From contig CAZRHR010000001.1 of assembly GCA_964599915.1 (NCBI GenBank), positions 12,019-76,018 of the forward strand: a stretch of DNA of 64,000 nucleotides. The letters are read 5' to 3'. The DNA comes from an uncultured Candidatus Competibacteraceae bacterium (GTDB lineage Bacteria > Bacteroidota > Bacteroidia > CAIKAF01). Under the pieces are notes generated by a model. That model did not search any database, was not told where the DNA came from, and saw nothing but the letters and a program-made list of their open reading frames with translations. Below are positions 3,330 to 47,889 of this stretch, piece by piece. The position numbers and the translations under genes are program-made. Positions within the stretch are counted from its first letter, which is position 1; every line of letters starts with the position of its first letter.

Positions 3330-4475
3330 TCATTTTACCGCCTCAAGGTATAGCTGGTAAAGTTTTTGGGCGTACGGGGTAAAGTCAAATAGCTGGGCTG
3401 TGGCCAAGGCGCCTTCAGAACAATGCAACCAGAGATCCGGCTGGGTTGAAAGTGAAAAGATTTTATCTGCAAAGGCTTCAGGATCTTGGGACATAAACAT
3501 CCAGCCATTATCGCCCTGCTTGTGCAACTTTCGATTTCCTTGTCCATCCAAAGCAAGTACTGGTAATCCACACGCCATGGCTTCGAGAATCACAAGTCCA
3601 AAAGGCTCGTAGGTGGCGGTATGGACATAAACCTGTGCGCCTGCCAATCTTTGCTGAACCTGCGGAACTTGCCCTGGTGCCACGACTTTGTCTGTAAGAT
3701 GTCGGCGTTCAATTTCTGCCCGCACTTCCTCCTGTAAAGGGCCAGCCCCATACATTTCTACCCGGACATCAATATTTCTGGCAAGGCAAGCCTCGGCGAT
3801 ATCCAATAAAAATCGTTGGTTCTTTTTTGCGACGAAGGAACCAATGTTGATAAGGGTAAAGGGTTGCGTTTGATGTTGGGCACGAAAAGGAAGGAAACGG
3901 CTCACATCAATGGCATTATCCAAAGCCACTACCCTATGCTTCCATTCTTTCGGCAAAACAGCTTGAAAATACGTTTGGGTATCCGGACTAATGGCTAAAA
4001 AAGTCGGGGGCACTTTTTGGTACGCCTTGATCAGATGCACCCATTCGTATGCCTCGGTCCAGCGTCTTTTTGACGCCAGATCACCCAGTGAAAGTGGACG
4101 CAGTTGGCGCATGTTATCATGGCAGTGGGTAAAATAAGCGATATCCGGTTTTGGCCGCACATGCGCAACCCACTCAGCCTCATACAGATGAGAATGAACC
4201 ACATGCGGCTTAAAGGTTTCAAGCAAAGCGTCAAATTGCTCCGTTTGAATCGTCCATTTTCCTTTAAGCGAGGGAACCACACGGGCATGTGTAACTACAG
4301 GCTGAATGTCGGGGTATTCATTGCCATAGCCATTTTCGTCCCTTAAGGTAGCCAGCACCACTTCAACCCCATCCAAACGTCGCAAATGACGCACTATGTC
4401 TAAGGCCATGCGTTCTGCCCCTCCGCGATAGAGGTTCGGAACTAAATGAAGTACGCGAAGTTTAGGAAAATTCAT
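3330..4475 (-). CDS. GT4 family glycosyltransferase (GT-B fold)
   Basis: C-terminal EPFGLVILEAMACGLPVLA is the GT4 EX7E-type signature. The likely true start is MNFPKLRVLHLVPN (ATG at 4473-4475), not the upstream ATG at 4565. Confidence 0.85.
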   Translation of the reverse strand: MNFPKLRVLHLVPNLYRGGAERMALDIVRHLRRLDGVEVVLATLRDENGYGNEYPDIQPVVTHARVVPSLKGKWTIQTEQFDALLETFKPHVVHSHLYEAEWVAHVRPKPDIAYFTHCHDNMRQLRPLSLGDLASKRRWTEAYEWVHLIKAYQKVPPTFLAISPDTQTYFQAVLPKEWKHRVVALDNAIDVSRFLPFRAQHQTQPFTLINIGSFVAKKNQRFLLDIAEACLARNIDVRVEMYGAGPLQEEVRAEIERRHLTDKVVAPGQVPQVQQRLAGAQVYVHTATYEPFGLVILEAMACGLPVLALDGQGNRKLHKQGDNGWMFMSQDPEAFADKIFSLSTQPDLWLHCSEGALATAQLFDFTPYAQKLYQLYLEAVK

Positions 4476-4632
4476 GTTTCTTGACGCTTTCAATTTTTCG
4501 CGCTCGAGAAAGAATAGAAATTGTATAATAACTGATTTATGTAAGATTGGGTTTGGATTACCCATATTATATCCAATCGGTTTCCTTGTATTTGAGTATT
4601 GTTATGACTTCGATTGAAGCACAGACATAGCT

Positions 4633-5943
4633 TCATTTAAAGTGGTCATTTAAAATCTCCGAAAGTACCTTTGAGTTAGCTTTTCGGCTAAATTTCTGTG
4701 CAATTCCGGCATCAACTACATCAGGTTCTAATCCTTCCAAATAAAGTTTAACCCAACGCACTAGCCATTCTTTTACATCAGTGAGATTTCGACATATCTT
4801 AAATCCAGGCCATTGGGCTGCAAACTGGTCAATAATGTCGGCATCTCCAGGATAAACAATAACAGGCCTCCTTGCCGCCAAATAATCAAAGATTTTACTT
4901 GAGGGGATGCCAGTATTTTTACCATAAACGGGCATCAACAATACCTGAGCATAATGAATTTCCGGAATAGCGGCTGAAAGCGGTTTCCTAGGAGATAAAA
5001 TAAGATGATTATGGAAATGACGAGGCATTGCCATTTTCACACGCTCAGATTGTTCGGAGGAATACGCAATCCCTTGAAAATGAATTTTCCAATTTAAATC
5101 AGGAAACTGCGAGAGCGCCTCACAAATACAGGGAAGCAGCGATTCTATATCTTGCGAAGGATAAAGGGTTCCACTGTAAAGTAAGGTAAATGAAGTTGAT
5201 GACTGCCACCTTAAGCTATTCGCTCTCGGACTCCCTGTAAATCCATTAATAATAGTGTACCCTTTTTTTCTTAGAAAAGACTCCAGTCTTTTTCTGTAAA
5301 CATCAGATACAGTGATGAAACAACAAGCAGATGTTAACCATTTTTTTTCGAAGTGACTGTTTAATCTTCTAAGCAATCTCTCGATAAGAGATTTTCTCAC
5401 ATTGAGTTTGTTAGTTGTCCAGTCGTCACGATAGTCAGCAATCCATGGGATACCATACTTTTGGTTTAGTCTATATCCTAAATGAAATTGAGAAAATGGA
5501 TTTCCAGAAATCACAAGCCCTTTGATATTACCATACGCTTTAACGATTCGGTGAATTTCTTTCTCAAGGAATCCCATTTCATTCCAACGAATTAAAAAAT
5601 TACCAAGGGAGAGATGAAGCATGGTTAATAATTGTCTGTAAAGTTTAATCTGTTTATTCTTTTGTACAAATAATCTATCCCGTAACGTAGGACTGAAGGG
5701 AACAAAGTGTTCTTCTCCCCAATCATAATATTTGACTTCAACACTTTTTCCAGAAGGCTTCAAGAGGTCTATTTCCGTGTAAACACTTTCTTGCCAATGT
5801 CTTGTTACGACAATAGGATAAATACCGTATTCCCTTAGATGAGGAACCCAACCATACAATCTATTGGCCCCGGTAAGCGTGCAAGGAGGATAAAAATAAG
5901 TAAGAAAAACAACGGGCTTCTCATGCGGCTTTATTTTGGTCAT
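4633..5943 (-). CDS. Putative GT-B fold glycosyltransferase
   Basis: 436 aa soluble protein lying between other GT genes. Its C-terminal half resembles a nucleotide-sugar-binding Rossmann domain. Family not firmly recognised. Confidence 0.45.
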   Translation of the reverse strand: MTKIKPHEKPVVFLTYFYPPCTLTGANRLYGWVPHLREYGIYPIVVTRHWQESVYTEIDLLKPSGKSVEVKYYDWGEEHFVPFSPTLRDRLFVQKNKQIKLYRQLLTMLHLSLGNFLIRWNEMGFLEKEIHRIVKAYGNIKGLVISGNPFSQFHLGYRLNQKYGIPWIADYRDDWTTNKLNVRKSLIERLLRRLNSHFEKKWLTSACCFITVSDVYRKRLESFLRKKGYTIINGFTGSPRANSLRWQSSTSFTLLYSGTLYPSQDIESLLPCICEALSQFPDLNWKIHFQGIAYSSEQSERVKMAMPRHFHNHLILSPRKPLSAAIPEIHYAQVLLMPVYGKNTGIPSSKIFDYLAARRPVIVYPGDADIIDQFAAQWPGFKICRNLTDVKEWLVRWVKLYLEGLEPDVVDAGIAQKFSRKANSKVLSEILNDHFK

Positions 5944-7043
5944 TTCTTGAAAGGAAATCTGGTTAATTTCTTAATTCTTCTTCTCAGATGAACAATAGAA
6001 GGGTAGTCGGTATGCTGCTTTATCGGTAGGTCCATGATCATATCAAATTCCTCCTCGTCCATTCCCCATTTTTTAATAACAAACTGCTTATCTGATGCCA
6101 CCAATTCCGGATCGGCTATTGGCAAACTAAGTTGTTGGAGGGCGACTTCCTTACTTAACTGACCCGCACAAATAAGGGTGGATAAATGGGACTTTCTTTT
6201 GTCAATTCCAAATTTTTTTGGCAGAATATAGGATTGATAAAATCGCGTAAAAACAGATTCATGGTGCTTGCCCCCATAAGGCCTCCATCCTAATTCTTTC
6301 TCAATGGTCTCCTGAATTTCACTCTTCTTATATCGAACATAATTTAATATGGGAACAAAACTAACCTTATAAAATCTTTTGGAATAGATATACCTGTAAT
6401 AATTGAGCAGCGGATAGCTTTTAATAGGAAGATTCCCATAGGCACTATGGATGCCAAGAATATTGGTATGGTCCATTTTAATATGCACCCAAGAATTGGG
6501 CAAAACACCTTCCGTTTCAAAGTTTTCGCCAGAAAGAATGTACTGAATACCATATTTTCGAGCTACCCGCTGAAGAATGGCGGCAATGGCATGGTCAGTT
6601 AAAACCTCAATATCTACTACGGAGGCTTTGAAGTAGGCCAATTGCAAATCCTTAAACTCATCCCAGTCAATCACATACGTATAAAGGTCAATATCTAAAC
6701 TACTTAAGGTTTTTTCTATATTCATAATCGCCAGCTCGGAATTCCAGCCATTATCCAAATGAACCGCAAGGGGCCTCAGCCCAAGTTTTTTTGATAAATA
6801 GGCCACGTACGTGCTATCCGTGCCACCACTTAGGCCAATAATACAATCATAAGGGGCATCTCTGCCCGTCCATTTAATCTCTTTGACCAGCTTATCCAAC
6901 ACCTCCGGCTTTTGTTCTTCAGAGGGCAAGCCCTTCATGCGGGTATCGTAGGTCCTGCAAATGGAACAAACCCCTTCTTTATCAAAAGTAAGAAAGGGAT
7001 CGTCTTGAGCATCAAGTAAACATCTGGAGCAACTGGTTTTCAT
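5940..7043 (-). CDS. N-acetyl sugar amidotransferase, PP-loop ATP pyrophosphatase (WbuX/WbpG/PseA-like)
   Basis: N-terminal Cys cluster CSRC...CSIC followed by the GLSGGTDS PP-loop motif. The 4-nt overlap with the downstream HisF-like gene suggests translational coupling. Confidence 0.8.
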   Translation of the reverse strand: MKTSCSRCLLDAQDDPFLTFDKEGVCSICRTYDTRMKGLPSEEQKPEVLDKLVKEIKWTGRDAPYDCIIGLSGGTDSTYVAYLSKKLGLRPLAVHLDNGWNSELAIMNIEKTLSSLDIDLYTYVIDWDEFKDLQLAYFKASVVDIEVLTDHAIAAILQRVARKYGIQYILSGENFETEGVLPNSWVHIKMDHTNILGIHSAYGNLPIKSYPLLNYYRYIYSKRFYKVSFVPILNYVRYKKSEIQETIEKELGWRPYGGKHHESVFTRFYQSYILPKKFGIDKRKSHLSTLICAGQLSKEVALQQLSLPIADPELVASDKQFVIKKWGMDEEEFDMIMDLPIKQHTDYPSIVHLRRRIKKLTRFPFKK

Positions 7044-7783
7044 TCTTCACTTTCTTCAAAATAATTAATTAATACGGAGCGAAGTCTCCCATAAAATACA
7101 AACATTGAACTTGCCCCTATGCCTTGCACCCCTGACTCCAATGCCTTTTTAATGTCGTCTTTCCCCGAAGCGCCTCCCAATAAAACCAAGGGGACCTGTA
7201 CGCTATCCCTGACAAGCTCAAAGGTCGAAAAGTCGAGGCCCTGATACGTCCCGTCTCTGTCTATGGAATGTAACACAATTTCACCCACGCCCCAATCCTG
7301 TACCCTTTTAATCAGGTCGGATAACTCATGGGATGTTCCGCTCAATTGTCCGCTCATTCCATGGCAGACCCTTTTCCCACTTGGTTCCACGGAGTAATCC
7401 AAACTTGCCATCACAGAACTCGCCCCAATGCTGCGAATGGCCTCTTTGACCAATGCTTGGTTTTTGAATAAAGCCGTTGAAAAACAAACTTTTTCATACC
7501 CCATTTTTATTAGATAATCCACATCGGTCATGTTCCGGATACCGCCCCCATACGCCAATGGCATAAATGCTTCATTTGCGATTTCCCGCAGGGTTTTCCA
7601 TTCTGGTCCGGAGCCATCCAAAGAAGCCCTGAAACCTGATATCATTAATTCGTGAACATTTTTTTCGTTAAATACCTTTACTGCATTAAGCGGGTCGCCA
7701 ACATAAACAGGTTGTTGAAAACGCACTGTTTTATATAAGCCTCCGGAACGTAAGCCCAGCACAGGAATTATACGCGCTTTCAT
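7040..7783 (-). CDS. Imidazole glycerol phosphate synthase cyclase-subunit paralog (HisF-like, WbuZ-type)
   Basis: MKARIIPVLGLRSGGLYKTVRFQQPVYVGDPLNAVKVFNE... is a HisF (beta/alpha)8 barrel signature. It sits in a glycan locus next to the PP-loop amidotransferase and a HisH domain. Confidence 0.85.
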   Translation of the reverse strand: MKARIIPVLGLRSGGLYKTVRFQQPVYVGDPLNAVKVFNEKNVHELMISGFRASLDGSGPEWKTLREIANEAFMPLAYGGGIRNMTDVDYLIKMGYEKVCFSTALFKNQALVKEAIRSIGASSVMASLDYSVEPSGKRVCHGMSGQLSGTSHELSDLIKRVQDWGVGEIVLHSIDRDGTYQGLDFSTFELVRDSVQVPLVLLGGASGKDDIKKALESGVQGIGASSMFVFYGRLRSVLINYFEESEE

Positions 7784-9735
7784 TGACTTATTTTAGATGT
7801 AACCAATACTCTCTTGAATAAATTCTTGCCATGGTGCAAGCTTTTTTCCGGGTGAAATTGAAACCCCCATACATTCCCAGATCTCACTGCGGAACAAAAC
7901 GCCATTCCATGAAAGGAGGTAAACAATACATCCCTGGAATCTTCCGGATCGCAATAGTACGAATGGGTAAAATAAAATTCACCCTCCTCAGTAGATGGCT
8001 CCTCATCCTTTGGCATGGTTTTCTCTGCCTGGTTCCACCCCATGTGAGGAATGGTAAAACCCTGTTTTTCAATAGATGACGGAAAGCGCTTCACCGTGCC
8101 TTTAATGAATCCTAATCCGGCCTCTCGCCCCTCCTCGCTACGCTCAAATAAGAGTTGCATGCCCAGGCAAATGCCAATCAATTGATTGCCTCTGTTTACA
8201 TGTTGCTGCAATACCTCAATCAGATTTTTTTGCCGAAGTTTTTGCATGGCCACGTCAAAAGCACCAACCCCCGGTAAAATAATGGTATGGAATAGGTGGA
8301 TGTCTTCGGCAAAATTTACAACATCTGCTTGAATGCCGGATTTTTTCAGCATTTTTTCAATGGCCCCAACGTTTCCGATACCTATGTTCAAAATGGCTAC
8401 GCCAGATAAAGGTTTAAAGTCAGGGATTTCACTTAAAAGTACGCCCGAATATTTAGTTATCAGGTCATCGGAACCCTCAAGAAGGTGTTTAAAGCGTTCA
8501 TAATTAATGTCTTCATTAAATAGGAGATATTGCTTTTTTCTCGCCGCTTCAGAAAATTGCAGGTATTCGTGCGCATTTAGCGATAGGATGGTTTGCAGTT
8601 TTTCAATCACTTCCTTTGGGGTGGTTTGATGAAGTAGCCACCCGTTATAGCCATCTTCCAGTAATTCCGGAATACCGCAAACGTTTGGGGCAATGATTGG
8701 AATCCCGAGGCTCATGGCCTCCATCATACTTACCGGAATGCCTTCATACAGACTTGTATTTACCAGTACCACCGGATTAATTTCCCTTAGTTTATTAATG
8801 ACACCGGAAGGAGAAATCCAGCCATGCAAATGTACCGACACTTTCGGGTGGTTTTTTAACTTCTTATGCAGTTTTTTTATAAAATCTTGCTCATAAGAAT
8901 CGAGCCGTCCCGCGCCAATATGGTGCCATTCCAGCGGCTCGCCATCCCATAGGTACAGGGCATCTACCAAACATTCCAGATTTTTAATGGGGTTAATGGT
9001 AGAAAGAGATACTATTTTAATTGGTTTTGGTTTGGTTTGATTGGTATGATATTGAGTGGGGATACCAAGCCTCGAAAGTTTGAACTTTTGCGAGTATTTT
9101 AAATTATTAATGATTAAGTGTTTTCTTCCATGTGTTGATATGGTGATGATGGAATCTATATGCTCAAATATAAAATGTCTGAAGGGAAGAAAACCCAAAG
9201 AATGCCGCTCGCCATAAAGGTCATGGCCATGGGCGCGTGCTACCCCCCTGGAAATTTTATTCGACTTTCTCCATTTGGCCAATAAAAAGGCGGCTTCATC
9301 GCTCCAATAGGAATACCAAACACCTCCTTCATCTTTCAGTTGATTTTTCTTCATTTCCCTTCTGATTCCTTGGTCCATCGTATAGGCCTGGATTAGGTAC
9401 ATGGTCGTGGTTTTCCAAGCCAAAAAGTTAAAAAATAAACCATTGGTTGTAAGGTCATGAAATACGTCTTTGCCATGAAAAAGCCATCCTTTAATGGACC
9501 CTAATACCTTGTCCGCAAGGGTTAATCTTTTCCTAATGGGTATTATCTTTATATTTTCCGGGAGCGACTTGTCATAACTTATCTCTTCATACTCAGCAAA
9601 TTCATGCCTTGTGAACACATAGATGTGGGGGATTTCTTTCGCCAAGTACAACAATTCTCCATGGATGAAAGGCTCCCCTTTTCCATAAGGATAATCTGGA
9701 ACCAACACAAACAACTGATTTATTTTAAAGGGCAT
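7780..9735 (-). CDS. Bifunctional protein: N-terminal GT4-like glycosyltransferase domain fused to a C-terminal HisH-type glutamine amidotransferase (WbuY-like)
   Basis: The N-terminal ~430 aa are paralogous to the next gene (shared EGIPVSMME..SLGIPII..VCGIPE GT4 motif). The C-terminal ~200 aa carry LPGVGAF...GICLGMQLLFE...PHMGWN...FQFHPEKS, the canonical HisH catalytic triad context. Confidence 0.8.
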   Translation of the reverse strand: MPFKINQLFVLVPDYPYGKGEPFIHGELLYLAKEIPHIYVFTRHEFAEYEEISYDKSLPENIKIIPIRKRLTLADKVLGSIKGWLFHGKDVFHDLTTNGLFFNFLAWKTTTMYLIQAYTMDQGIRREMKKNQLKDEGGVWYSYWSDEAAFLLAKWRKSNKISRGVARAHGHDLYGERHSLGFLPFRHFIFEHIDSIITISTHGRKHLIINNLKYSQKFKLSRLGIPTQYHTNQTKPKPIKIVSLSTINPIKNLECLVDALYLWDGEPLEWHHIGAGRLDSYEQDFIKKLHKKLKNHPKVSVHLHGWISPSGVINKLREINPVVLVNTSLYEGIPVSMMEAMSLGIPIIAPNVCGIPELLEDGYNGWLLHQTTPKEVIEKLQTILSLNAHEYLQFSEAARKKQYLLFNEDINYERFKHLLEGSDDLITKYSGVLLSEIPDFKPLSGVAILNIGIGNVGAIEKMLKKSGIQADVVNFAEDIHLFHTIILPGVGAFDVAMQKLRQKNLIEVLQQHVNRGNQLIGICLGMQLLFERSEEGREAGLGFIKGTVKRFPSSIEKQGFTIPHMGWNQAEKTMPKDEEPSTEEGEFYFTHSYYCDPEDSRDVLFTSFHGMAFCSAVRSGNVWGFQFHPEKSLHHGKNLFKRVLVTSKISQ

Positions 9736-9788
9736 ACGATATTTTTGTAGCGCAAATAGTCAAAGTGTTCTTTAGCTTGTCATGATGG

Positions 9789-11057
9789 TCATGGCTTACC
9801 ATAAAGCAAGGCAATAAATTCCTTAAAGTTGGTGGTTTCATTAAAATAGGTTTGCTGGATGGCGCAAGAGGCCTGACACATCTCCATATAATCTTGCGTG
9901 GGCATTTGGACCAATTTAAGCAAGGCCCGCCCCAAACTTTCCTTATCCTGTATATCTATACAGAAGCCATTTTTCCCTTCAAAAATAATTTCAGGGATGC
10001 CGCAAACCTTAGGACCTATAATGGGAATACCCAAACTGGCCAGCTCCATCATGCTCACGGGGATACCTTCAAAATGACTGGTATTTACGAGTACTTTAGG
10101 TTTAATCGAACGAACGACCTGTAACACCTGATTTGGTGCCACGAACCCATGCAGGATTACTTTGATTTTCGGATTTTGGGATGATAACTCCCTCATTTGC
10201 TTTATGATGCCTTGGCTATATGGCTCTCCTTTCCCTGCGCCAATATGATGCCATTCAAGCTCACAGGCGTGCCAATGCAGCAGGGTTTGGATGATGGTTT
10301 CTAAGTTTTTCACAGGTGAAATACCCGAAAGACTGAGGAGCCTCAAGGGTGAGTCTTGAGATATGGGCAAGGGTGTCGTTAATGGAATCCCAAGACGGGA
10401 CACATGAATTTCTGCCCCTACATTACCATATTTGGAAGATAAATAGGCTTTCCCATGGTTGGATATGGGAACCACTACATCTATATGTTTAAAAATAAAT
10501 TTGCGGAAAGGGAGGTAATGATTAGGGTGTCTTATTTCATACAAATCTGTATTGTGGGTACGTACAACGGTTCTCTTTATAGTTTTTTCTTTTTTCAGTT
10601 TGGCTAAAGTAAGTGACGACTCTATGGCCCAATAACTATACCAAATCCCATGCTGGGCACCCCTTCCTTCGTGTTTTAAATAAGACTTTATTTGATTTTC
10701 CAGACCCAAGGCCCTAATTTGGTACATCATGGCCGTTTTTATCGCAAGCCAATTGAGGAGCAACCCACGTTCCTTCAGATCCGTAAATATAGTTCTTGCA
10801 CTTCGCCATAGGACTGTTAAGATGGTCATGGCTTTCATTTTCTGCGAAAGATGGGTACCCGCCAACACCATTTTCACATTGTGCTGGGGTATCTGAAACA
10901 GGGGTGGGTGGTCTGGGACACGACCCAACTGATTAAAGATAATGACCTCATCAAATTGCGTGGCTAAATACTGCAACTCCCGATGAAAAAAGGGTTCCCC
11001 GGAAGAGAATGGATAGTCAATGGTGAGGACGAAAAGAACATTTACATGTTTCGACAT
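9789..11057 (-). CDS. GT4-like glycosyltransferase (paralog of the N-terminal domain of 7780..9735)
   Basis: MSKHVNVLFVLTIDYPFSSGEPFFHRELQYLA... and FEGIPVSMMELASLGIPIIGPKVCGIPEII closely parallel the neighbouring fusion protein. Confidence 0.8.
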   Translation of the reverse strand: MSKHVNVLFVLTIDYPFSSGEPFFHRELQYLATQFDEVIIFNQLGRVPDHPPLFQIPQHNVKMVLAGTHLSQKMKAMTILTVLWRSARTIFTDLKERGLLLNWLAIKTAMMYQIRALGLENQIKSYLKHEGRGAQHGIWYSYWAIESSLTLAKLKKEKTIKRTVVRTHNTDLYEIRHPNHYLPFRKFIFKHIDVVVPISNHGKAYLSSKYGNVGAEIHVSRLGIPLTTPLPISQDSPLRLLSLSGISPVKNLETIIQTLLHWHACELEWHHIGAGKGEPYSQGIIKQMRELSSQNPKIKVILHGFVAPNQVLQVVRSIKPKVLVNTSHFEGIPVSMMELASLGIPIIGPKVCGIPEIIFEGKNGFCIDIQDKESLGRALLKLVQMPTQDYMEMCQASCAIQQTYFNETTNFKEFIALLYGKP

Positions 11058-11081
11058 TTAAAACAATTGATTAAGAGAGAT

Positions 11082-12005
11082 TTATTTTCCTCTTATTCCC
11101 AATTTTTTTACATAATGCCATGCATTAGAGAAACCGGGAATTAAACAAAACAGCAAAAACAACTTAGGTTTGCTTTGAGGGTGAAAAGGCTTTAAAAAAA
11201 TAGAGTACAAGAGGTTTTTGTAGGCCATATATTTATTTCCCTCGTAAAAATAATACTGACCAATGTCGAAATAGCAATCACTCAGTATGGTATTCTTGAA
11301 TGAATGAGAAAGCTTACCGGATAAAGGATCTTTGAAAAAAAGTCTTAAGCCATGTAATCTTTTTACTCCCGTGTTGTTTTTTTTATTTATTGAATTCCCT
11401 TCATGTACTCGGTACCACAGCAATGGCTTTGCAAGGTGTAAAAGAGGGAAATCGTTAAGTATACTAATCCATAAAATAGTATCCTCACCAATCGTAACAT
11501 TTTCTGGGAAACGATAGATTTTTAAAATATCCTTATGAACACAAGCACGACTTGGAGAAACAGGACAACGATACAACCACTCAGCAATATTTTCAGAAAC
11601 TTCGGGCACATTTTCGACCAAAGCGGTTTTTCCATCCCAGATACAAAAATTAGATATTACAAGTGCCCTTGGGAAATTTTTTAAATAAAGAAAAAGGTGC
11701 AATTCAATTAGATAATTGGCGGCATAGCGGTCATCACTGTCCAGAAAACAAATGTATTGCCCCAAGGCATGGTCAATTCCGTTGTTTCTTGCGGCACTGC
11801 GTTCGGCGTTTTGCTGATACACATAGCGAATGCGCGGGTCATCGACACAACGTTTTTTCATGACGATGGCCGTATGATCGGTGGAGCCATCATCCACCAC
11901 GATACACTCCCAATCCGTAAAGGACTGTCCACACAGCGAATCCAGCGTTTCGGTAAGAAAATCCGCACGGTTGTAAGCGGGAACGATGATGGAGAAGAAG
12001 GGCAT
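11082..12005 (-). CDS. GT2 glycosyltransferase
   Basis: FSIIVPAYNRADFLTETLDSLCGQSFTDWECIVVDDGSTDHT and DSDD motifs. Paralog of 22509..23450. Confidence 0.85.
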   Translation of the reverse strand: MPFFSIIVPAYNRADFLTETLDSLCGQSFTDWECIVVDDGSTDHTAIVMKKRCVDDPRIRYVYQQNAERSAARNNGIDHALGQYICFLDSDDRYAANYLIELHLFLYLKNFPRALVISNFCIWDGKTALVENVPEVSENIAEWLYRCPVSPSRACVHKDILKIYRFPENVTIGEDTILWISILNDFPLLHLAKPLLWYRVHEGNSINKKNNTGVKRLHGLRLFFKDPLSGKLSHSFKNTILSDCYFDIGQYYFYEGNKYMAYKNLLYSIFLKPFHPQSKPKLFLLFCLIPGFSNAWHYVKKLGIRGK

Positions 12006-12057
12006 TTATGTTTTGGTTTTCCTTGTTGGCTATATTTTAATTCATGGCATTTTCAGG

Positions 12058-34355: not shown

Positions 34356-34364
34356 ATATAATGC

Positions 34365-37869: not shown

Positions 37870-39111
37870 TCACTCACGGCTATAGTTAAAATCAACTTGG
37901 GGTATTATATAACCACTTCGTTTCCCGTAATAAAAATCCATAAATGATTCATCACATAATTCAAAGTTAAGTATATCCTTTAAATATCCTAAAAGCTCAG
38001 TTGATTCCAAATGAAAGTTTAGTTGGACAGCATAAATTCCTGAATTCAATGTTCCGCCGGGTAATAAAAAAGTACAATTAATTCTACCTGGCGCTTCTGT
38101 GATCATTGGGGACGGGTTCTCAAAAATAACCTCCTCATTATTCCCTCTAACAATAAGATTTATATAAAAACCATTTAAAATAGAGTGCTCGAATTCAACA
38201 TTAAATCTTATTGCGTCTGAAGGATTTAACTGGTTGCCATCACTGGAAATGTGCACCCGATGCACCCATAAGCCTTCGCTTAGACGCCCTTCATCTCCCA
38301 AGATAACATTGATTTTTCTTGGTTCAGTGTCATCCATGTAAGCACGGATTGCACGGCTTGTTTCATCAATAGTTTTGATATTGCCATTTTTTAAAAACAT
38401 TACAGAACTGCATAGCGCTTTAATACTCAGTAAATTGTGACTAACAAAAAGCACCGTTCGACCCTCTGATGCACTTACATCCTTCATCTTTCCCAAACAC
38501 ATCTTCTGAAACTCACCATCCCCAACAGCCAATACCTCATCCACAATCAAAATCTCACTTTCCAAATGGGCCGCTACCGCAAAAGCCAATCGCACATACA
38601 TGCCGCTGCTATAGCGCTTTACCGGCGTGTCAATGTAGCGTTCCACTCCGGCAAAGTCTATGATTTCATCCAGCTTTCTGGTGATCTCATGTTTGCGCAT
38701 CCCCAAAATGGCACCATTTAAATAAATATTTTCCTTTCCGGTAAGCTCCGGGTGAAATCCTGTACCGACTTCAAGCAGGGAAGCGATGCGACCCTTTACT
38801 TTGATGTTTCCGGTCGTAGGGGCCGTTACCTTGGAGAGTATTTTTAATAAAGTGCTTTTCCCTGCGCCATTGCGCCCAATAATACCCAAAACTTCACCTT
38901 GTTCCACATCGAAACTTACATCTTGCAACGCCCAAACATAATCGGAAACTCCTTTTTGGGTGCGGTCATTTGTTTCACCAATTTTTTGAAATGGATCTTC
39001 TTTTCCCCTCATGGTATGCCACCACCGAAGGACATCGTCACGTAAGGTGCCGCTGCCAACGGTGCCAAGTCGGTATTGTTTAGAAATATTTTGGGCTTGG
39101 AGGATTTTCAT
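37870..39111 (-). CDS. wzt: Polysaccharide ABC exporter ATP-binding protein (Wzt/TagH-like) with a ~160-aa C-terminal extension domain
   Basis: Walker A GIIGRNGAGKSTLLKIL, signature YSSGMYVRLAFAVA, Walker B ILIVDEVLAVGD. The extra C-terminal domain is the Wzt-type substrate-recognition region. Confidence 0.9.
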   Translation of the reverse strand: MKILQAQNISKQYRLGTVGSGTLRDDVLRWWHTMRGKEDPFQKIGETNDRTQKGVSDYVWALQDVSFDVEQGEVLGIIGRNGAGKSTLLKILSKVTAPTTGNIKVKGRIASLLEVGTGFHPELTGKENIYLNGAILGMRKHEITRKLDEIIDFAGVERYIDTPVKRYSSGMYVRLAFAVAAHLESEILIVDEVLAVGDGEFQKMCLGKMKDVSASEGRTVLFVSHNLLSIKALCSSVMFLKNGNIKTIDETSRAIRAYMDDTEPRKINVILGDEGRLSEGLWVHRVHISSDGNQLNPSDAIRFNVEFEHSILNGFYINLIVRGNNEEVIFENPSPMITEAPGRINCTFLLPGGTLNSGIYAVQLNFHLESTELLGYLKDILNFELCDESFMDFYYGKRSGYIIPQVDFNYSRE

Positions 39112-39237
39112 GAATAGGATTAAAGATAAGTGTGATTTAAAATATGCGTTTGGCTTAATTTATGTTCAGCGTAGTAAGGAACAGAATTTTTCAGGCACAT
39201 AGTTTATTAAAACAATAAAGATACTTACTATCAATAC

Positions 39238-40083
39238 TTAGACCGTATCCATAAAGGTCTTTTCTGTGCGATTAAAAATCAAAATGCCCACCATCAAAGC
39301 AATCGAAGCGAATACTGTACTATATAACAATCCCATGAGGGGCACCTCGCCTGTACCGCCGGTAAATCCAAGCCTGAATGTTTCAATGACTGGCGCGAGG
39401 GGATTCAAATATAGGAAGGCCTTATACCTTTCAGGGATTTCAGACATTGGATAAATAACCGGGGTAATGTACATAAGCAGAGAAACCCCAAAGCTGATAA
39501 AATAGTTTAGGTCACGGTATTTGGTGGTAAGGGAAGACAAGATAATCCCCAGACCCAATCCGATGCAAGCCATCAAAAGAACCAACAAGGGAAAAAGCAA
39601 TGCGTAAATGTTCATTGAGGCCATACCTTTGTTGGCATAATACACCCAAAAAACCATGAACATGGCCATTTGAAGGAAAAACTTAAATAAACTAGAAATT
39701 ACCACAGAAATCGGGGATACCAACCTGGGAAAATATACCTTTCCGAAAATAGCGGCATTCGACACAAAAGTATTGGCTGTACCGGTAAAGCAGCTTTGGA
39801 AATAACTCCACAGGGTGGTACCTGCAAGGTAAAATAAAGGTCCAGGGATGCCATCCGTGGGAATTTGGGCAATGTGGGAAAATACAAAGGTAAAGGAGAA
39901 CACGGTGAATAAAGGACCAAGAAACAGCCATAAAGGACCGAGGATGGTCTGCTTGTATTGAGCCACAAAATCCCTCCTTACAAACAAGGCAATCAAATCT
40001 CTGTATCGCCAAACTTCTTTTAAATTCACATCGAATAAAGAACGTTTGGGGGAAATTATTTCTGTCCAACTTGTTTGGTTCAT
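39238..40083 (-). CDS. wzm: ABC-2 type polysaccharide exporter permease (Wzm-like)
   Basis: 281 aa, six TM segments, ABC-2 family layout. Sits immediately upstream of wzt. Confidence 0.85.
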   Translation of the reverse strand: MNQTSWTEIISPKRSLFDVNLKEVWRYRDLIALFVRRDFVAQYKQTILGPLWLFLGPLFTVFSFTFVFSHIAQIPTDGIPGPLFYLAGTTLWSYFQSCFTGTANTFVSNAAIFGKVYFPRLVSPISVVISSLFKFFLQMAMFMVFWVYYANKGMASMNIYALLFPLLVLLMACIGLGLGIILSSLTTKYRDLNYFISFGVSLLMYITPVIYPMSEIPERYKAFLYLNPLAPVIETFRLGFTGGTGEVPLMGLLYSTVFASIALMVGILIFNRTEKTFMDTV

Positions 40084-44776: not shown

Positions 44777-44825
44777 GGGATTTATACCTTATCTTCACCC
44801 CCGACAATTAAAACCTTTGTTTTTC

Positions 44826-46664
44826 ATGTGCGGAATTGCTGGCACGACCCATCCCACCCAAGCAGCCTCTTTGATTCGGTCCATGACGCAAGCCATGGCC
44901 CATCGTGGACCCGATGCAGAAGGCCACTTTGTCCATCCCGAACGTCCACTCGCTTTAGGTCATCGTCGGCTTTCGATCATAGACTTGTCCGAAGCCGGTT
45001 CCCAACCTTTTTATAGTGCCTGTGGCCAGTATGTGATGGTATTCAATGGAGAAGTTTTCAATTTTCAAGAAATTGCAACGGAACTTTTGAATGAAAAAAG
45101 CCTCACGTTCAGATCCCGCACAGATACCGAAGTTATTTTAGAAGCCTTTGTGCACTGGGGCCCCAACTTTGTCCATAAGCTCAATGGCATGTTCGCCATC
45201 GCTATTTACGACGTTCGCGAAGACAAACTCTTTCTCTGGAGAGATCGACTTGGCATCAAGCCCATTTATTTTTACCACCACGGCCGGCATTTTGCTTTCG
45301 CCTCTGAACTCGGCTCCCTTAAAGCCGCAGTTCCCTTCTCTACCATCAATCAAGCGGCTGTTTCCTTATATTTTCACCTTGGGTACATTCCGGCACCCCA
45401 TACCATTTACTCAGAAGCTAAAAAACTTCCCGCCGGACATTGGCTCACTTACGAAAAAGGGCAAATTCAATCGGGTGCATGGTGGCCCATCGAAGAAGTC
45501 AGCAACCATGCGTACCAAGGCAGCCTGGAAGAAGCCACCGAGGAACTGGACCAACTTCTTACAGACGCCGTAGCCAAACGACTTGTAGCAGACGTTCCCT
45601 TCGGAACGTTTCTCAGTGGTGGCATTGATTCCAGTTTGGTCACCGCTTTGGCGGCCAAACAATACGGCCCGGGCCTAAGAACCTTTTCCATTGCCATGGA
45701 CCAGCAAACCCATGACGAATCATCCTATGCATTGGCCGTAAGCAAGGCGCTCGGAACCAACCATACTTCTTTCAAAGTAACGGCCAATGATGCCATGGAT
45801 TTGGTCACCGCCCTTCCAGACATTTACCAAGAACCTTATGCCGACAGCTCGGCCATGCCCACCTTGCTTGTGTCGCAACTCGCAAGGCAACATGTGACCA
45901 TGGTACTCACCGGAGACGGAGGCGATGAATTGTTCCTTGGTTATGGCGCCTACCGGTGGGCCGAACGATGGAACCAGATGCCTGGATTTTTACGCCAAAC
46001 AGCCGCCTTCGCCCTCTCCATCGGAAAAGAGCGCCATAAAAGAGCCGCCGATTTGTTGCGAGGCCCCAAAAATGTTTCTACCTATTCGCATATTTTTTCC
46101 CAAGAACAATACCTGTTTTCCGACCGCGAATTACCTGCCTTGCTAAACTTTCCGCCACAACTGAACTCCATTTCACCCCTTTTCCCCGAAAGACCACTTT
46201 CCCCCGCCGAACAACAAGCTTTTTTCGATTTGCAATATTACCTGCCCGACGATTTATTGGTCAAAGTGGACCGGGCCACCATGCGACATAGTTTGGAAGC
46301 CCGCGTACCTATCCTCGATTACCGGGTCGCCACCTTTGCCATGAATCTTCCTCCTCATTTCAAAATGCAGGGAGATATTCAAAAGCATATTTTAAAAAAT
46401 GTCCTGTACAGATATTTACCCGCCTCCTTGTTCGACCGACCCAAATGGGGTTTTTCCGTTCCACTCGCCACCTGGCTACAAAAAGAACTTGCACCCCTTG
46501 TGGACCAATGGGTTGCGCAACCCGAGGCCTACGCCCATGGTTGCCTTCAACATGCCACCGCACTGCAATGGCTAAACCGCTTTAAAGCCGGCGAAACCCG
46601 CCTTTACAATAGGATTTGGCTCATCCTTCAGTTTAACCTTTGGTATGCCCGAAACCATGCGTAG
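44826..46664 (+). CDS. asnB: Asparagine synthase (glutamine-hydrolysing), AsnB/WbpS-like
   Basis: MCGIAG N-terminus (the true start, not the upstream MFFM), HRGPDAEGH, and SGGIDSS PP-loop. Confidence 0.9.
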   Translation: MCGIAGTTHPTQAASLIRSMTQAMAHRGPDAEGHFVHPERPLALGHRRLSIIDLSEAGSQPFYSACGQYVMVFNGEVFNFQEIATELLNEKSLTFRSRTDTEVILEAFVHWGPNFVHKLNGMFAIAIYDVREDKLFLWRDRLGIKPIYFYHHGRHFAFASELGSLKAAVPFSTINQAAVSLYFHLGYIPAPHTIYSEAKKLPAGHWLTYEKGQIQSGAWWPIEEVSNHAYQGSLEEATEELDQLLTDAVAKRLVADVPFGTFLSGGIDSSLVTALAAKQYGPGLRTFSIAMDQQTHDESSYALAVSKALGTNHTSFKVTANDAMDLVTALPDIYQEPYADSSAMPTLLVSQLARQHVTMVLTGDGGDELFLGYGAYRWAERWNQMPGFLRQTAAFALSIGKERHKRAADLLRGPKNVSTYSHIFSQEQYLFSDRELPALLNFPPQLNSISPLFPERPLSPAEQQAFFDLQYYLPDDLLVKVDRATMRHSLEARVPILDYRVATFAMNLPPHFKMQGDIQKHILKNVLYRYLPASLFDRPKWGFSVPLATWLQKELAPLVDQWVAQPEAYAHGCLQHATALQWLNRFKAGETRLYNRIWLILQFNLWYARNHA

Positions 46665-47889
46665 CCTATATCTTTCTTACGATGGCATGACCGATCCACT
46701 GGGACAATCCCAAGTGCTGCCCTATCTGCAAGGTCTAGCAAAACAAGGCTGGGAAATCACCCTCATCAGTTTTGAAAAACAAGAACGCTTTTCTCAAGAA
46801 AAAGCCACCATAGAAGCCCTTACCCAAGCTGCAGGAATCCGCTGGATCCCGCTTCCCTACACCAAAAAGCCCCCCGTTTTATCCACCCTTTGGGACCTTT
46901 ACAAACTGTTTCAAACCGTAAAAAAGGAACATCGAAACCAGCCTTTTCAATTGGTTCACTGCCGCAGCTACATCACCGCATTTGCCGGATTACACCTGAA
47001 AAAAAAACATGGGGTGCCTTTTCTGTTCGATATGCGAGGATTTTATGCAGATGAACGGGTAGAAGGAGGCATTTGGAACCTGAAAAATCCACTCTTCAGC
47101 CGCATTTATCAGTATTTTAAATCGGCGGAGCAAAAGTTCCTCACCCAGGCCGATGCCATTGTTTGCCTCACCCACAAAGGAAAGGCAGTGATGAAAGATT
47201 TCCCCGGCGTTACGTCCTCTGTTCACGAGAAAATAGCAGTCATCCCATGCTGTACAGACATGGACCATTTTTCCTCACGTCAGGTTCAGCCGGCCATGGT
47301 AGAAGCATGGAAAACCAAGCTGGCCTTGCCAACCGGCACTGAGCTCATCGCTTATTTAGGTTCCCTTGGGACGTGGTATCTGGTGGAAGACATGGCGCGC
47401 TTTATGGCTGTTGCACACGCTGCGCGCCCCCAATTGGTCTGGTTAATCATCACCCGCGACCAGCCCGATGCACTTTGGCGCGCCGCAGAAAAACACGGCT
47501 TACCCAAAGAGGCCATCAGGATTTTTCCGGCCAAGCGAGATGAATTACCAAGCCTGTTGTCATTGGTGAAAGCCTCTTTGTTTTTTATCCAGCCTTCCTT
47601 TTCCAAGCAAGCCTCCAGCCCCACCAAGCAAGGAGAACTTATGGCCATGGGGATTCCCGTCATTTGCAACGCAGGCGTAGGCGACTCAGATTTCCTCGTT
47701 CAAAAATACCAGTCCGGACTGGTGGTTGAAAAAATGGAAGAGGCAGATTTTCAAAAAGTATTGGAGCACTGGGAAGAACTTTTGCATCCGGATACGGAAG
47801 CCATCCGCCGTGGCGCTTACGACTATTTTTCTTTGGAAAAAGGCGTAGCCACTTACGCCGGTCTATATACCTCCCTCACCCAAAAATAG
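46645..47889 (+). CDS. GT4-like glycosyltransferase
   Basis: GT-B protein whose start overlaps the end of asnB. C-terminal GELMAMGIPVICNAGVGDSDFLV is a degenerate EX7E region. Confidence 0.7.
   Translation: MPETMRSLYLSYDGMTDPLGQSQVLPYLQGLAKQGWEITLISFEKQERFSQEKATIEALTQAAGIRWIPLPYTKKPPVLSTLWDLYKLFQTVKKEHRNQPFQLVHCRSYITAFAGLHLKKKHGVPFLFDMRGFYADERVEGGIWNLKNPLFSRIYQYFKSAEQKFLTQADAIVCLTHKGKAVMKDFPGVTSSVHEKIAVIPCCTDMDHFSSRQVQPAMVEAWKTKLALPTGTELIAYLGSLGTWYLVEDMARFMAVAHAARPQLVWLIITRDQPDALWRAAEKHGLPKEAIRIFPAKRDELPSLLSLVKASLFFIQPSFSKQASSPTKQGELMAMGIPVICNAGVGDSDFLVQKYQSGLVVEKMEEADFQKVLEHWEELLHPDTEAIRRGAYDYFSLEKGVATYAGLYTSLTQK

What the first reader, a model, noticed from the sequence alone, without database searches (positions are those of the whole stretch)
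5940..9735. Acetamidino-sugar (WbuXYZ-type) module in which the HisH glutaminase is fused to a GT4 glycosyltransferase
The PP-loop N-acetyl-sugar amidotransferase (5940..7043), a HisF paralog (7040..7783) and a HisH domain are the known trio that converts an N-acetyl group into an acetamidino group on nucleotide sugars. Here the HisH domain is the C-terminal 200 aa of a 651-aa protein whose N-terminal 430 aa is a GT4-like domain. That domain is paralogous to the downstream gene 9789..11057. The three genes overlap by 4 nt each. A physical fusion of glutaminase and glycosyltransferase suggests the amidination is coupled to a specific transfer step. I am not aware of a described fusion like this.
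Basis: partly seen in the sequence, partly recalled or inferred. Interest (0 to 1): 0.55.

Follow-up and report, generated by a model that had tools for sequence, protein, structure and literature searches.

The report
Glycosyltransferase fused to sugar-amidination glutaminase
A real and conserved but rare gene fusion joins a sugar-adding enzyme to the ammonia-producing subunit of the machinery that turns N-acetyl sugars into positively charged acetamidino sugars, and related bacteria fuse the same sugar-adding enzyme to the machinery's catalytic subunit, so the two steps are probably coupled.

Summary
Window 7780-9735 (minus strand) is one 651-aa ORF. It holds a complete GT4 glycosyltransferase (aa 1-421), a 24-aa linker and a HisH glutaminase (aa 446-651). 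It is followed, with ATGA overlaps, by a HisF2/WbuZ-like barrel (7040-7783) and a WbuX amidotransferase (5940-7043).

A frameshift artefact is excluded. Independent assemblies give the same junction. Eight further clusters of full-length orthologues (35-95% identity) keep both domains, both catalytic motifs and the order fusion-HisF2-WbuX.

The fusion is rare: 5 of 1.84 billion cluster representatives.

- The same GT family is fused to WbuX in at least 70 protein clusters, and once as GT-HisH-GT. That makes at least two independent fusions to the same machinery.
- A divergent GT4-like protein (4633-5943) accompanied these genes in every fusion locus long enough to show it.
- Three unfused relatives of the GT lie next to an AsnB-like amidotransferase instead, so the GT is not exclusive to acetamidino sugars.

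Best reading: a GT·HisH:HisF2:WbuX complex couples amidination to the transfer of one sugar residue. Whether amidination comes before or after transfer is unresolved.

Novelty: a new architectural variant of a known system. I found no description of it. Interest is moderate.

The parts
8473..9735 (-). GT4 (retaining GT-B) glycosyltransferase domain, aa 1-421 of the 651-aa fusion protein
   Evidence: Pfam Glycos_transf_1 at aa 233-400. The E331-x7-E339 motif is invariant in 54 family members. The AF2 model (mean pLDDT 89) superposes on BshA, MshA, WaaB and HepE over about 430-450 columns, target TM about 0.76.
8401..8472 (-). Inter-domain linker, aa 422-445 (SDDLITKYSGVLLSEIPDFKPLSG)
   Evidence: Variable in length and sequence among orthologues and never interrupted by a stop. 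Model pLDDT 61-67 here. DNA shows one substitution and no indel in three other assemblies.
7780..8400 (-). HisH/WbuY-type class I glutaminase domain, aa 446-651, plus stop codon
   Evidence: TIGR01855 at 192.3 bits, cut-off 105.4. Triad C523/H628/E630 and the PHMGW interface motif are invariant and align with T. maritima HisH 1gpw_B. Foldseek target TM 0.89, rmsd 1.6-1.8 Å to HisH structures.
7040..7783 (-). HisF2/WbuZ/AglZ-like (βα)8 barrel, the presumed ammonia conduit
   Evidence: NF038364 at 264.8 bits, TIGR03572 at 198.8 bits, PF00977 at 149.9 bits. The equivalent of cyclase Asp11 is Gly ('riipvlglrsg' against 'riipcldvkdg'), while the equivalents of the gate residues are kept. ATGA overlap with the fusion gene.
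5940..7043 (-). WbuX/WbpG/LfnA-type PP-loop N-acetyl sugar amidotransferase
   Evidence: TIGR03573 at 279.8 bits, cut-off 203.2. SGGTDS PP-loop and the C5xxC8...G24xC26xxC29 zinc motif are present (motifs as defined in PMC10607449). ATGA overlap.
4633..5943 (-). 436-aa divergent GT4-like protein ('p436'), translationally coupled to WbuX; a recurring companion of the module
   Evidence: Homologues are in fusion loci L001, L002/L003, L084, L087, L088 (tandem copy) and L091, and in unfused L012 and L007. More than 600 homologues exist, some with Glycos_transf_1 hits. Invariant PWIADYRDDWTT motif; the first Glu of EX7E is missing. ATGA overlap.
9789..11057 (-). Stand-alone paralogue (422 aa) of the fused GT domain, immediately upstream in the operon
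   Evidence: 39% identity over 418 aa. It ends 'LLYGKP*' exactly where the fusion continues into its linker. It falls among the HisH-fused GT domains in a rough, unsupported NJ tree.
3330..4565 (-). Classical GT4 (411 aa), a conserved scaffold neighbour of the module
   Evidence: Pfam Glyco_transf_4 + Glycos_transf_1. Orthologues are in nine of the eleven loci compared, all but L001... correction: all but L002-type gaps are listed; none reached the reporting length in L088.
44817..47889 (+). AsnB-like glutamine amidotransferase (44817-46664) and GT4 (46645-47889); in related loci this pair directly follows the module or the unfused GT
   Evidence: Pfam Asn_synthase + GATase_7. Synteny GT(family)-[HisH-HisF2-WbuX-p436]-AsnB-GT4 is seen in L001, L087, L091 and L092-94. 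Here the pair is about 35 kb away on the other strand.
37870..40083 (-). Wzm/Wzt-like ABC transporter of the glycan cluster
   Evidence: ABC_tran and ABC2_membrane. ABC transporter genes also lie near the fusions in L088 and on the P0342 contig.

Best explanation
The 651-aa protein is a bifunctional GT4 glycosyltransferase and glutaminase.

Proposed mechanism:
1. The C-terminal HisH domain hydrolyses glutamine.
2. The ammonia passes through the HisF2 barrel. Its cyclase Asp11 equivalent is lost, while its gate residues are kept.
3. The ammonia reaches the PP-loop enzyme WbuX. WbuX activates the carbonyl of a sugar N-acetyl group with ATP and converts it to an acetamidino group.
4. Because the glutaminase is covalently tethered to a catalytically intact GT4, the amidination complex (GT·HisH:HisF2:WbuX) sits on the enzyme that installs one particular sugar residue of an ABC-transporter-exported surface glycan. 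Transfer and amidination of that residue are therefore kept together and stoichiometric.

My lean, which is inferred and not shown: the GT adds the N-acetylated residue and WbuX acts at or after transfer on the membrane-bound intermediate (about 40%). The alternative is that WbuX hands an amidinated nucleotide sugar to the GT as its donor (about 30%).

What is shown: the domain identities, the intact motifs, the reality, conservation and rarity of the fusion, and the recurrent fusions. What is inferred: complex formation, ammonia channelling, coupling to transfer and the order of steps.
For: - **Domains and motifs:**. A complete GT-B fold and a HisH fold appear in a confident model.
- **The fusion is real:**. 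Full-length proteins from eight further clusters, 35-95% identical, keep both domains.
- **Conserved gene order:** fusion-HisF2-WbuX is found in L001, L002/3, L084-86, L088 and L090.
- **Rosetta-stone support:** the same GT family is fused to WbuX in at least 70 clusters at 90% identity, with HisH and HisF adjacent in two of the three contexts examined. There is also a GT-HisH-GT protein. In a rough tree the WbuX-fused and HisH-fused GT domains fall in separate clades, implying at least two independent fusions.
- **Unfused arrangement:** GT, p436 and HisH are adjacent in L012 (which also carries HisF2 and WbuX) and in L007 (cut at the contig edge).
- **HisF2 as a conduit:** Asp11 equivalent is Gly and the gate residues are kept.
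- **Precedent for the complex:** P. aeruginosa HisF2 and WbpG interact in Co-IP or pull-down experiments and in a predicted complex (PMC11445079).
- **Towards a post-transfer step:** three unfused GT relatives lie in loci with no WbuXYZ within 10 kb. The Legionella homologue has an 'unusually wide and open' pocket (PMC10607449). LfnA and WbuX are membrane-associated, but I know this from a paper title only.
Against: - There is no biochemical or structural evidence here that the GT domain contacts WbuX or HisF2.
- HisH is the subunit furthest from the sugar site, so the tether may only provide co-localisation.
- About 20 WbuXYZ loci from other phyla lack this GT within 8 kb, so the GT is not a general component of the system.
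- Unfused relatives sit next to an AsnB-like enzyme and not WbuXYZ, so the GT belongs to a conserved scaffold that can exist without amidination.
- For nonulosonic acids, amidinated CMP-sugars have been reported in cell extracts (my recollection, not checked here). That favours amidination at the nucleotide-sugar stage.
- The identity of the sugar in this organism is unknown.
- Internal translation initiation of a separate HisH cannot be strictly excluded.
Confidence: 0.6

Rival explanations
1. Donor channelling. WbuX amidinates a nucleotide-activated N-acetyl sugar, and the fused GT uses that amidinated nucleotide sugar as its donor. The fusion keeps a scarce or labile donor near its only consumer and prevents incorporation of the unmodified sugar.
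For: - Fusion of the GT directly to WbuX, the sugar-binding subunit, in at least 70 clusters.
- Loci with the module often carry two copies of the GT family: GT422 plus the fusion here and in L001 and L084, and GT-HisH-GT in L088. That fits one copy having specialised for the amidinated variant of a sugar.
- Amidinated CMP-nonulosonic acids have been reported in cells (my recollection, not checked here).
Against: - Close unfused family members work in loci with no WbuXYZ within 10 kb, so the family is not intrinsically specific for amidino donors.
- No in vitro conversion of a nucleotide sugar by a WbuX-type enzyme appears in the literature I could read.
- HisH fusion places the GT far from the WbuX active site.
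Confidence: 0.3
2. Positional, functionally neutral fusion. The GT gene simply lies immediately 5' of the amidination genes in tightly packed operons with ATGA overlaps. Loss of a stop codon fused it to whichever gene came next (HisH or WbuX). The two halves work independently, and the only benefit is co-expression.
For: - A conserved scaffold, GT4-GT(family)-[module]-AsnB-GT4, places the GT next to the insertion point of the module.
- The fusion partner is always the adjacent gene.
- The linker is poorly conserved and modelled with low confidence.
- Most WbuXYZ systems work without any such GT.
Against: - The fusion has been retained down to 35% identity with both active sites intact.
- There are at least two independent fusions of the same GT family to two different subunits of one machine.
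- On the P0342 contig the GT sits between HisF and WbuX, inside the gene set and not at its edge.
- In unfused loci the GT still abuts the HisH-p436 operon.
Confidence: 0.25
3. Assembly or sequencing artefact. A frameshift or missed stop codon has artificially joined two separate genes.
For: None found.
Against: - The 201-nt junction shows one substitution and no indel in three independent Logan assemblies.
- The exact 651-aa protein is present in another run.
- Orthologues at 35-66% identity from JGI, ENA, NCBI and Logan all have a single ORF.
- The HisH part has no start Met of its own.
Confidence: 0.01

Closest known systems
E. coli O145 WbuX/WbuY/WbuZ and P. aeruginosa O5 HisH2-HisF2-WbpG (O-antigen acetamidino formation: FucNAm, ManNAc3NAmA)
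   Same: The same three protein families (TIGR03573 WbuX, a HisF paralogue and a HisH paralogue). The gene order HisH-HisF-amidotransferase matches the P. aeruginosa wbp cluster, which I give from memory. The setting is a surface-polysaccharide cluster. A HisF2-WbpG physical interaction has been shown (PMC11445079).
   Different: Here HisH is not a free subunit of about 200 aa. It is the C-terminal domain of a GT4 glycosyltransferase. The host is a Bacteroidota-type organism with an ABC-transporter-type cluster. A conserved extra GT4-like protein (p436) is translationally coupled to WbuX.
Methanococcus maripaludis AglX/AglY/AglZ (acetamidino group of the archaellin N-glycan)
   Same: NF038364 'AglZ/HisF2 family acetamidino modification protein' is the best model for 7040-7783. 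The division of labour among the three components is the same (from my knowledge of the system).
   Different: The score is below the equivalog cut-off (264.8 against 310). This system is bacterial, not archaeal. The AglY equivalent is fused to a GT.
Imidazole glycerol phosphate synthase HisH-HisF, and the fused yeast His7
   Same: The glutaminase triad, the PHMGW interface motif and the equivalents of the barrel's ammonia-gate residues are conserved. Fusion of HisH to a partner has a precedent in His7 (PDB 1jvn).
   Different: The fusion partner here is a glycosyltransferase, not the barrel. The HisF2 barrel has lost the cyclase Asp11 equivalent. The ammonia acceptor is a PP-loop enzyme.
GT-WbuX fusion proteins (about 800 aa) from uncultured Bacteroidota, found here
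   Same: The N-terminal GT family is the same (31-34% identity over about 420 aa). The p436, AsnB and GT4 neighbours are the same. HisH and HisF genes are adjacent in two of three contexts.
   Different: The GT is joined to the synthetase subunit instead of the glutaminase subunit. This form is far more common (at least 70 clusters at 90% identity, against about 10). I found no description of it either.
MurT/GatD lipid II amidotransferase
   Same: It is a glutaminase paired with an ATP-dependent ligase-type enzyme that amidates a cell-envelope precursor on its lipid carrier (PMC3266927, PMC6113224; abstracts seen). It is therefore a precedent for amidation after attachment to the lipid.
   Different: The protein families are unrelated (a Mur-ligase fold and a CobQ-type glutaminase). 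It amidates a carboxyl group and does not form an amidine. No glycosyltransferase is involved.

Membership tests
N-acetyl sugar amidotransferase (WbuX/WbpG/LfnA/PseA; TIGR03573), for 5940-7043 | Family HMM score above the curated cut-off, matched end to end | tested here: met
   279.8 bits against a cut-off of 203.2; aa 4-338 match profile positions 3-344 of 344.
N-acetyl sugar amidotransferase (WbuX/WbpG/LfnA/PseA; TIGR03573), for 5940-7043 | PP-loop SGGxDS and the tetracysteine motif CxxC...[GN]xCxxC (as defined in PMC10607449) | tested here: met
   SGGTDS at aa 72-77; C5-SR-C8 ... G24-V-C26-SI-C29 (motif definitions).
N-acetyl sugar amidotransferase (WbuX/WbpG/LfnA/PseA; TIGR03573), for 5940-7043 | ATP-dependent conversion of a sugar N-acetyl group to an acetamidino group | not testable with these tools
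   This needs an enzyme assay or glycan analysis by mass spectrometry or NMR.
WbuZ/AglZ/HisF2 acetamidino-associated HisF paralogue, for 7040-7783 | Score above the curated equivalog cut-offs (NF038364 at 310; TIGR03572 at 299.7) | tested here: not met
   264.8 and 198.8 bits, both below the cut-offs. They are still the two best models, matched full length (1-245 of 248), and far above HisF proper (129 bits). I treat it as a divergent member by context, not as a strict equivalog.
WbuZ/AglZ/HisF2 acetamidino-associated HisF paralogue, for 7040-7783 | His_biosynth (βα)8 barrel encoded next to both a HisH and a WbuX gene | tested here: met
   PF00977 at 149.9 bits. It is flanked by the HisH domain and by WbuX with 4-nt overlaps. 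The same neighbourhood occurs in all orthologous loci.
HisH/WbuY class I glutamine amidotransferase, for aa 446-651 of 7780-9735 | Family HMM above cut-off, the Cys-His-Glu triad and the HisF-docking PHMGW motif | tested here: met
   TIGR01855 at 192.3 bits against 105.4. C523, H628, E630 and W567 are invariant and align to T. maritima HisH. Foldseek target TM 0.89.
HisH/WbuY class I glutamine amidotransferase, for aa 446-651 of 7780-9735 | A free-standing subunit of about 200 aa | tested here: not met
   It is the C-terminal domain of a 651-aa protein and has no start codon of its own. This is the feature that makes the protein a variant.
GT4 retaining glycosyltransferases (GT-B fold), for aa 1-421 of 7780-9735 | Glycos_transf_1 C-terminal domain with the EX7E motif | tested here: met
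   PF00534 at 71.4 bits against 26.4. E331 and E339 are invariant in 54 sequences.
GT4 retaining glycosyltransferases (GT-B fold), for aa 1-421 of 7780-9735 | The two-Rossmann-domain GT-B architecture | tested here: met
   The AF2 model (pLDDT 89.1) aligns over about 430-450 columns with BshA 6n1x, MshA 3c4q, WaaB 5n80 and HepE 4xsu, target TM 0.74-0.77. The N-terminal half has no significant Pfam hit, so it is a divergent acceptor domain.
WcaL / EpsE (named GT4 equivalogs that give the best NCBIfam hits) | Score above the equivalog cut-off | tested here: not met
   WcaL at 51.5 bits against 537.6; EpsE at 74.7 bits against 400. The protein is not a member. The donor and acceptor remain unknown.

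The most novel reading that the evidence does not exclude
In these bacteria the acetamidino-forming amidotransferase is not a soluble nucleotide-sugar tailoring enzyme. It is an integral module of a membrane-proximal glycan assembly line. A dedicated GT4 family acts as its docking subunit, fused to either HisH or WbuX, and WbuX amidinates the residue on the nascent lipid-linked glycan straight after the GT adds it. That would settle, for this branch of the family, the unresolved question of the substrate stage of WbuX-type enzymes. It would also provide naturally fused proteins for reconstituting an activity that I have not seen reported in vitro.
Probability: 0.3. Interest if true: 0.6.

Novelty: new variant of a known kind. 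Interest (0 to 1): 0.45.

Why it matters
Acetamidino sugars put a positive charge on O-antigens, capsules and flagellar or archaellar glycans. They affect adhesion and serotype; the P. aeruginosa O12 example is in PMC11637443.

The enzymes that make them are poorly understood. The first structure dates from 2023, and that paper says little is known about function (PMC10607449). The substrate stage, nucleotide sugar or lipid-linked glycan, is unresolved, and I saw no report of reconstituted activity.

Natural fusions that tie one GT4 family to two different subunits of the machinery do three things:
- They point to the transferase that handles the modified residue.
- They predict a four-part complex that can be tested directly.
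- They offer stable single-chain constructs for biochemistry and structural work.

If the fusion proves to be merely positional, the result is a modest annotation point: proteins now labelled 'HisH' or 'N-acetyl sugar amidotransferase' are really bifunctional.

Tried and rejected
- **Frameshift or assembly artefact:** rejected.
- **Fusion in named genomes:** the scan of one genome per GTDB species gave no full-length fusion among the best 80 loci. Two hits that seemed to extend upstream of HisH (L047, L017) were ordinary separate genes.
- **AlphaFold database fold search:** meant to look for annotated proteins with both domains, but the library was unavailable.
- **Literature:** King et al. 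2008 on LfnA/WbuX and the M. maripaludis AglXYZ work could not be read. Statements about them rest on a title or on my memory and are marked as such.
- **Is the GT family always linked to WbuXYZ?** Rejected. Three unfused relatives lie beside an AsnB-like amidotransferase, with no WbuXYZ within 10 kb. About 20 WbuXYZ loci from other phyla lack the GT.
- **Is the GT a WcaL or EpsE orthologue?** Rejected, because the scores are far below the cut-offs.
- **p436:** a PDB sequence search found nothing useful. I did not model its structure.
- **Which sugar is amidinated:** not resolved. The 95%-identical orthologue (L084) has WbpB/WbpD/WbpE-like genes right after WbuX, but this window has p436 there instead.
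- **Organism:** not determined beyond Bacteroidota-type markers, namely a T9SS sorting domain, a SusC-like protein and Flavobacteriales/Bacteroidia names on homologues.

Full report

Yes. All the genes concerned are on the minus strand.
- The ORF 7780-9735 encodes 651 aa.
- Pfam finds Glycos_transf_1 at aa 233-400 (71.4 bits, cut-off 26.4) and a class I GATase at aa 448-640.
- NCBIfam finds HisH (TIGR01855) at aa 446-644 with 192.3 bits against a cut-off of 105.4.
- The next gene, 7040-7783, matches the AglZ/HisF2 (NF038364, 264.8 bits) and WbuZ (TIGR03572, 198.8 bits) models best. It scores 129 bits against HisF proper. Both best scores are below the strict equivalog cut-offs.
- It carries the SGGTDS PP-loop and the CxxC...GxCxxC zinc motif that define the family (PMC10607449).
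- All three gene junctions are ATGA overlaps, including the next one into 4633-5943.
- The GT part is 39% identical over 418 aa to the gene at 9789-11057. That gene is upstream, not downstream, in the direction of transcription.
- The paralogue ends 'LLYGKP*' exactly where the fusion reads on: 'LLEG-SDDLITKYSGVLLSEIPDFKPLSG-VAILNIGIGNV...'. The linker is therefore aa 422-445, window 8401-8472.

**2. Is the fusion an artefact?**

No.
- The 201 nt around the junction show one substitution and no indel in three independent Logan assemblies.
- The exact 651-aa sequence is present in a fourth run and in an NCBI record.
- A search of 5.8 billion proteins returned eight further clusters of full-length proteins (635-659 aa) at 35-95% identity. 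All carry both domains and come from JGI, ENA, NCBI and Logan data.
- In their alignment the linker varies in length and sequence but never contains a stop.
- The glutaminase triad (C523, H628, E630), the PHMGW motif and the GT4 E331-x7-E339 motif are all invariant.
- The HisH motifs align with T. maritima HisH.
- An AlphaFold model built on 54 sequences is confident (mean pLDDT 89.1, pTM 0.72), and only the linker is weak (pLDDT 61-67).
- By Foldseek, aa 1 to about 430 is a complete two-domain GT-B enzyme of the retaining GT4 type (BshA, MshA, WaaB, HepE; target TM about 0.76). Residues 446-650 are a HisH fold (target TM 0.89, rmsd 1.6-1.8 Å).
- No solved chain covers both parts.
- No transmembrane segment is predicted in the fusion, in WbuX or in p436.

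**3. How common is it, and what travels with it?**

- An exhaustive HMMER pass over 1.84 billion cluster representatives found only five that are GT-HisH: P0002, P0004, P0122, P0008 and the 1061-aa P0121.
- P0121 is GT-HisH-GT.
- In every locus examined, the fusion is followed by HisF2 and then WbuX: L001, L002/3, L084-86, L088 and L090.
- The unexpected result concerns the roughly 800-aa relatives of the GT domain. They are fusions of the same GT family to WbuX itself (TIGR03573 at 235-267 bits; 41% identity to the window's WbuX).
- A dedicated search found at least 70 such clusters at 90% identity.
- In two of the three GT-WbuX contexts examined, HisH and HisF genes are adjacent. In one contig the order is HisH-HisF-[GT·WbuX].
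- A rough NJ tree of GT domains, without support values, puts the HisH-fused GTs and their adjacent unfused paralogues in one clade. The WbuX-fused GTs fall in another. This implies at least two independent fusions of one GT family to two different subunits of the same machinery.

**4. A further conserved partner.**

- The 436-aa product of 4633-5943 has no significant family hit.
- Homologues occur in all six fusion loci long enough to show one: L001, L002/L003, L084, L087, L091 and, as a tandem 861-aa protein, L088.
- They also occur beside HisH and the unfused GT in L012 (Flavobacteriia) and L007 (Acidobacteriota).
- The family has more than 600 members. Some hit Glycos_transf_1, and they come mostly from Flavobacteriales and Bacteroidia bins.
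- It keeps an invariant PWIADYRDDWTT motif and lacks the first Glu of EX7E.
- I regard it as a divergent GT-B protein that belongs to the module. Its role is unknown.

**5. Context and limits of the association.**

- The module lies in a glycan cluster of about 40 kb. The cluster holds many GT2, GT4, GT11 and GT61 genes, methyltransferases, two aminotransferase cassettes and a Wzm/Wzt-like ABC transporter.
- ABC transporter genes also lie near the fusions in L088 and on the P0342 contig.
- Markers point to Bacteroidota: a T9SS sorting domain and a SusC-like protein.
- The association with the GT is not universal. About 20 WbuX-HisF2-HisH loci from other phyla have no such GT within 8 kb.
- Three unfused relatives of the GT (P0011, P0019, P0013) sit in a conserved scaffold: GT2, GT4, GT(family), AsnB-like amidotransferase, GT4. 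No WbuXYZ lies within 10 kb of them.
- In L001, L087 and L091 the amidination genes and p436 lie exactly between the GT and the AsnB-like gene.
- The GT is therefore a scaffold component next to which the amidination genes sit. It is fused to whichever of them is adjacent.
- In this window the AsnB-like/GT4 pair has been moved about 35 kb away onto the other strand (44817-47889).

**6. Mechanism.**

Established knowledge of imidazole glycerol phosphate synthase, together with the proposal for HisH2/HisF2/WbpG, gives the core of the model. That proposal is supported by a demonstrated HisF2-WbpG interaction (PMC11445079). The core runs as follows:
1. HisH makes ammonia.
2. The barrel conducts it.
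3. The PP-loop enzyme uses ATP to turn the acetamido carbonyl into an amidine.

Here the barrel has Gly in place of the cyclase Asp11. It keeps the equivalents of the gate residues Arg5, Glu46, Lys99 and Glu167 (T. maritima numbering from memory). This fits a conduit rather than a cyclase.

The fusion adds a catalytically intact GT4 to this complex. I conclude that amidination is physically tied to the transfer of one sugar residue (confidence about 0.6 for coupling of any kind).

The order of steps is not resolved.
- **For amidination at or after transfer:** unfused relatives of the GT work in loci without WbuXYZ nearby. The Legionella enzyme has a wide, open pocket. LfnA and WbuX are reported as membrane-associated, which I know from a title only.
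- **For donor channelling:** the GT is fused directly to the sugar-binding subunit in most cases. The GT is duplicated in several module-bearing loci. Amidinated CMP-nonulosonic acids have been reported in cells (my memory, unchecked).
- **For a purely positional, neutral fusion:** this remains a serious rival at about 0.25, given the tight operon packing and the scaffold position.

**7. Comparison and novelty.**

- The three amidination components meet the tests for the WbuX family and the HisH family. By context, and less strictly, they meet those for the HisF2/WbuZ family.
- The system is therefore a member of the known WbuXYZ / HisH2-HisF2-WbpG / AglXYZ kind.
- What is new is the architecture: HisH as a domain of a GT4, the sister GT·WbuX and GT·HisH·GT forms, and the p436 companion.
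- I found no description in the searchable literature.
- Source annotations call these proteins only 'HisH', 'glutamine amidotransferase' or 'N-acetyl sugar amidotransferase'.
- I rate it a new variant of a known kind with moderate interest (0.45).
- A specialist would not be astonished, because multi-domain enzymes are common in polysaccharide assembly.
- Even so, the recurrent fusions make the open question of the substrate and timing of WbuX-type enzymes directly testable.

Noticed in passing
window 4457-5966, compared with L084 6367-10673: The window and L084 are 93.7% identical in DNA over window 5966-12023. Identity stops right at the 3' end of WbuX and resumes at 3337-4457 (91%). In between, the window has only p436 (1.3 kb). 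L084 has WbpB-like, hexapeptide acetyltransferase and DegT genes plus a p436 homologue only 25% identical (4.3 kb). This looks like a cassette swap directly after the amidination genes.
   Followed up: partly
window 44817-47889 (+), compared with L001, L087, L091 and L092-94: In related loci an AsnB-like glutamine amidotransferase plus a GT4 directly follow the module, or the unfused GT. Here that pair lies about 35 kb away on the opposite strand, beyond the ABC transporter. The cluster has been rearranged.
   Followed up: partly
window 1497-3125 and 15340-16950 (-): Two proteins of 542 and 536 aa match no Pfam or NCBIfam family. A hydropathy scan predicts 9-11 membrane-spanning segments in each. 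They may be polymerase, ligase or GT-C-like components of the glycan pathway.
   Followed up: partly
window 12130-13297 (+), 19590-20144 (+), 23833-24327 (-): Transposase fragments (DUF4372 + DDE_Tnp_1, and DDE_Tnp_1_3) and a truncated AbiEii toxin gene lie inside the glycan cluster. Blocks of low GC (0.30-0.34) occur at about 14-20, 30-32 and 36-38 kb. This suggests a mosaic, horizontally reshuffled cluster. The L084 contig ends close to the position that corresponds to the first IS.
   Followed up: no
window 17481-19492 (-) and 33738-35471 (-): There are two separate amino-sugar tailoring cassettes: DegT aminotransferase plus formyltransferase, and DegT plus a PglD-like acetyltransferase. 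The glycan therefore probably carries formamido and further acetamido sugars. Which N-acetyl group WbuX modifies is unknown.
   Followed up: no
window 399-1496 (-): A GT2 protein whose Glycos_transf_2 match is split into two stretches (aa 8-52 and 104-221), as if about 50 aa had been inserted. Its best NCBIfam hit is a polyprenyl-phospho-sugar synthase (PpgS), far below the cut-off.
   Followed up: no
P0124, P0126, P0130, P0131 (proteins, not in the window): The same GT family also occurs as tandem GT-GT proteins of about 820-835 aa. The p436 family occurs as a tandem 861-aa protein in L088. Domain fusion and duplication are frequent in this set of families.
   Followed up: partly
window 7040-7783 (-): The HisF2 barrel has Gly at the position of the cyclase catalytic Asp11 but keeps the second Asp (the Asp130 equivalent) and the four gate-residue equivalents. 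I did not check whether this pattern is general for WbuZ/AglZ proteins.
   Followed up: partly
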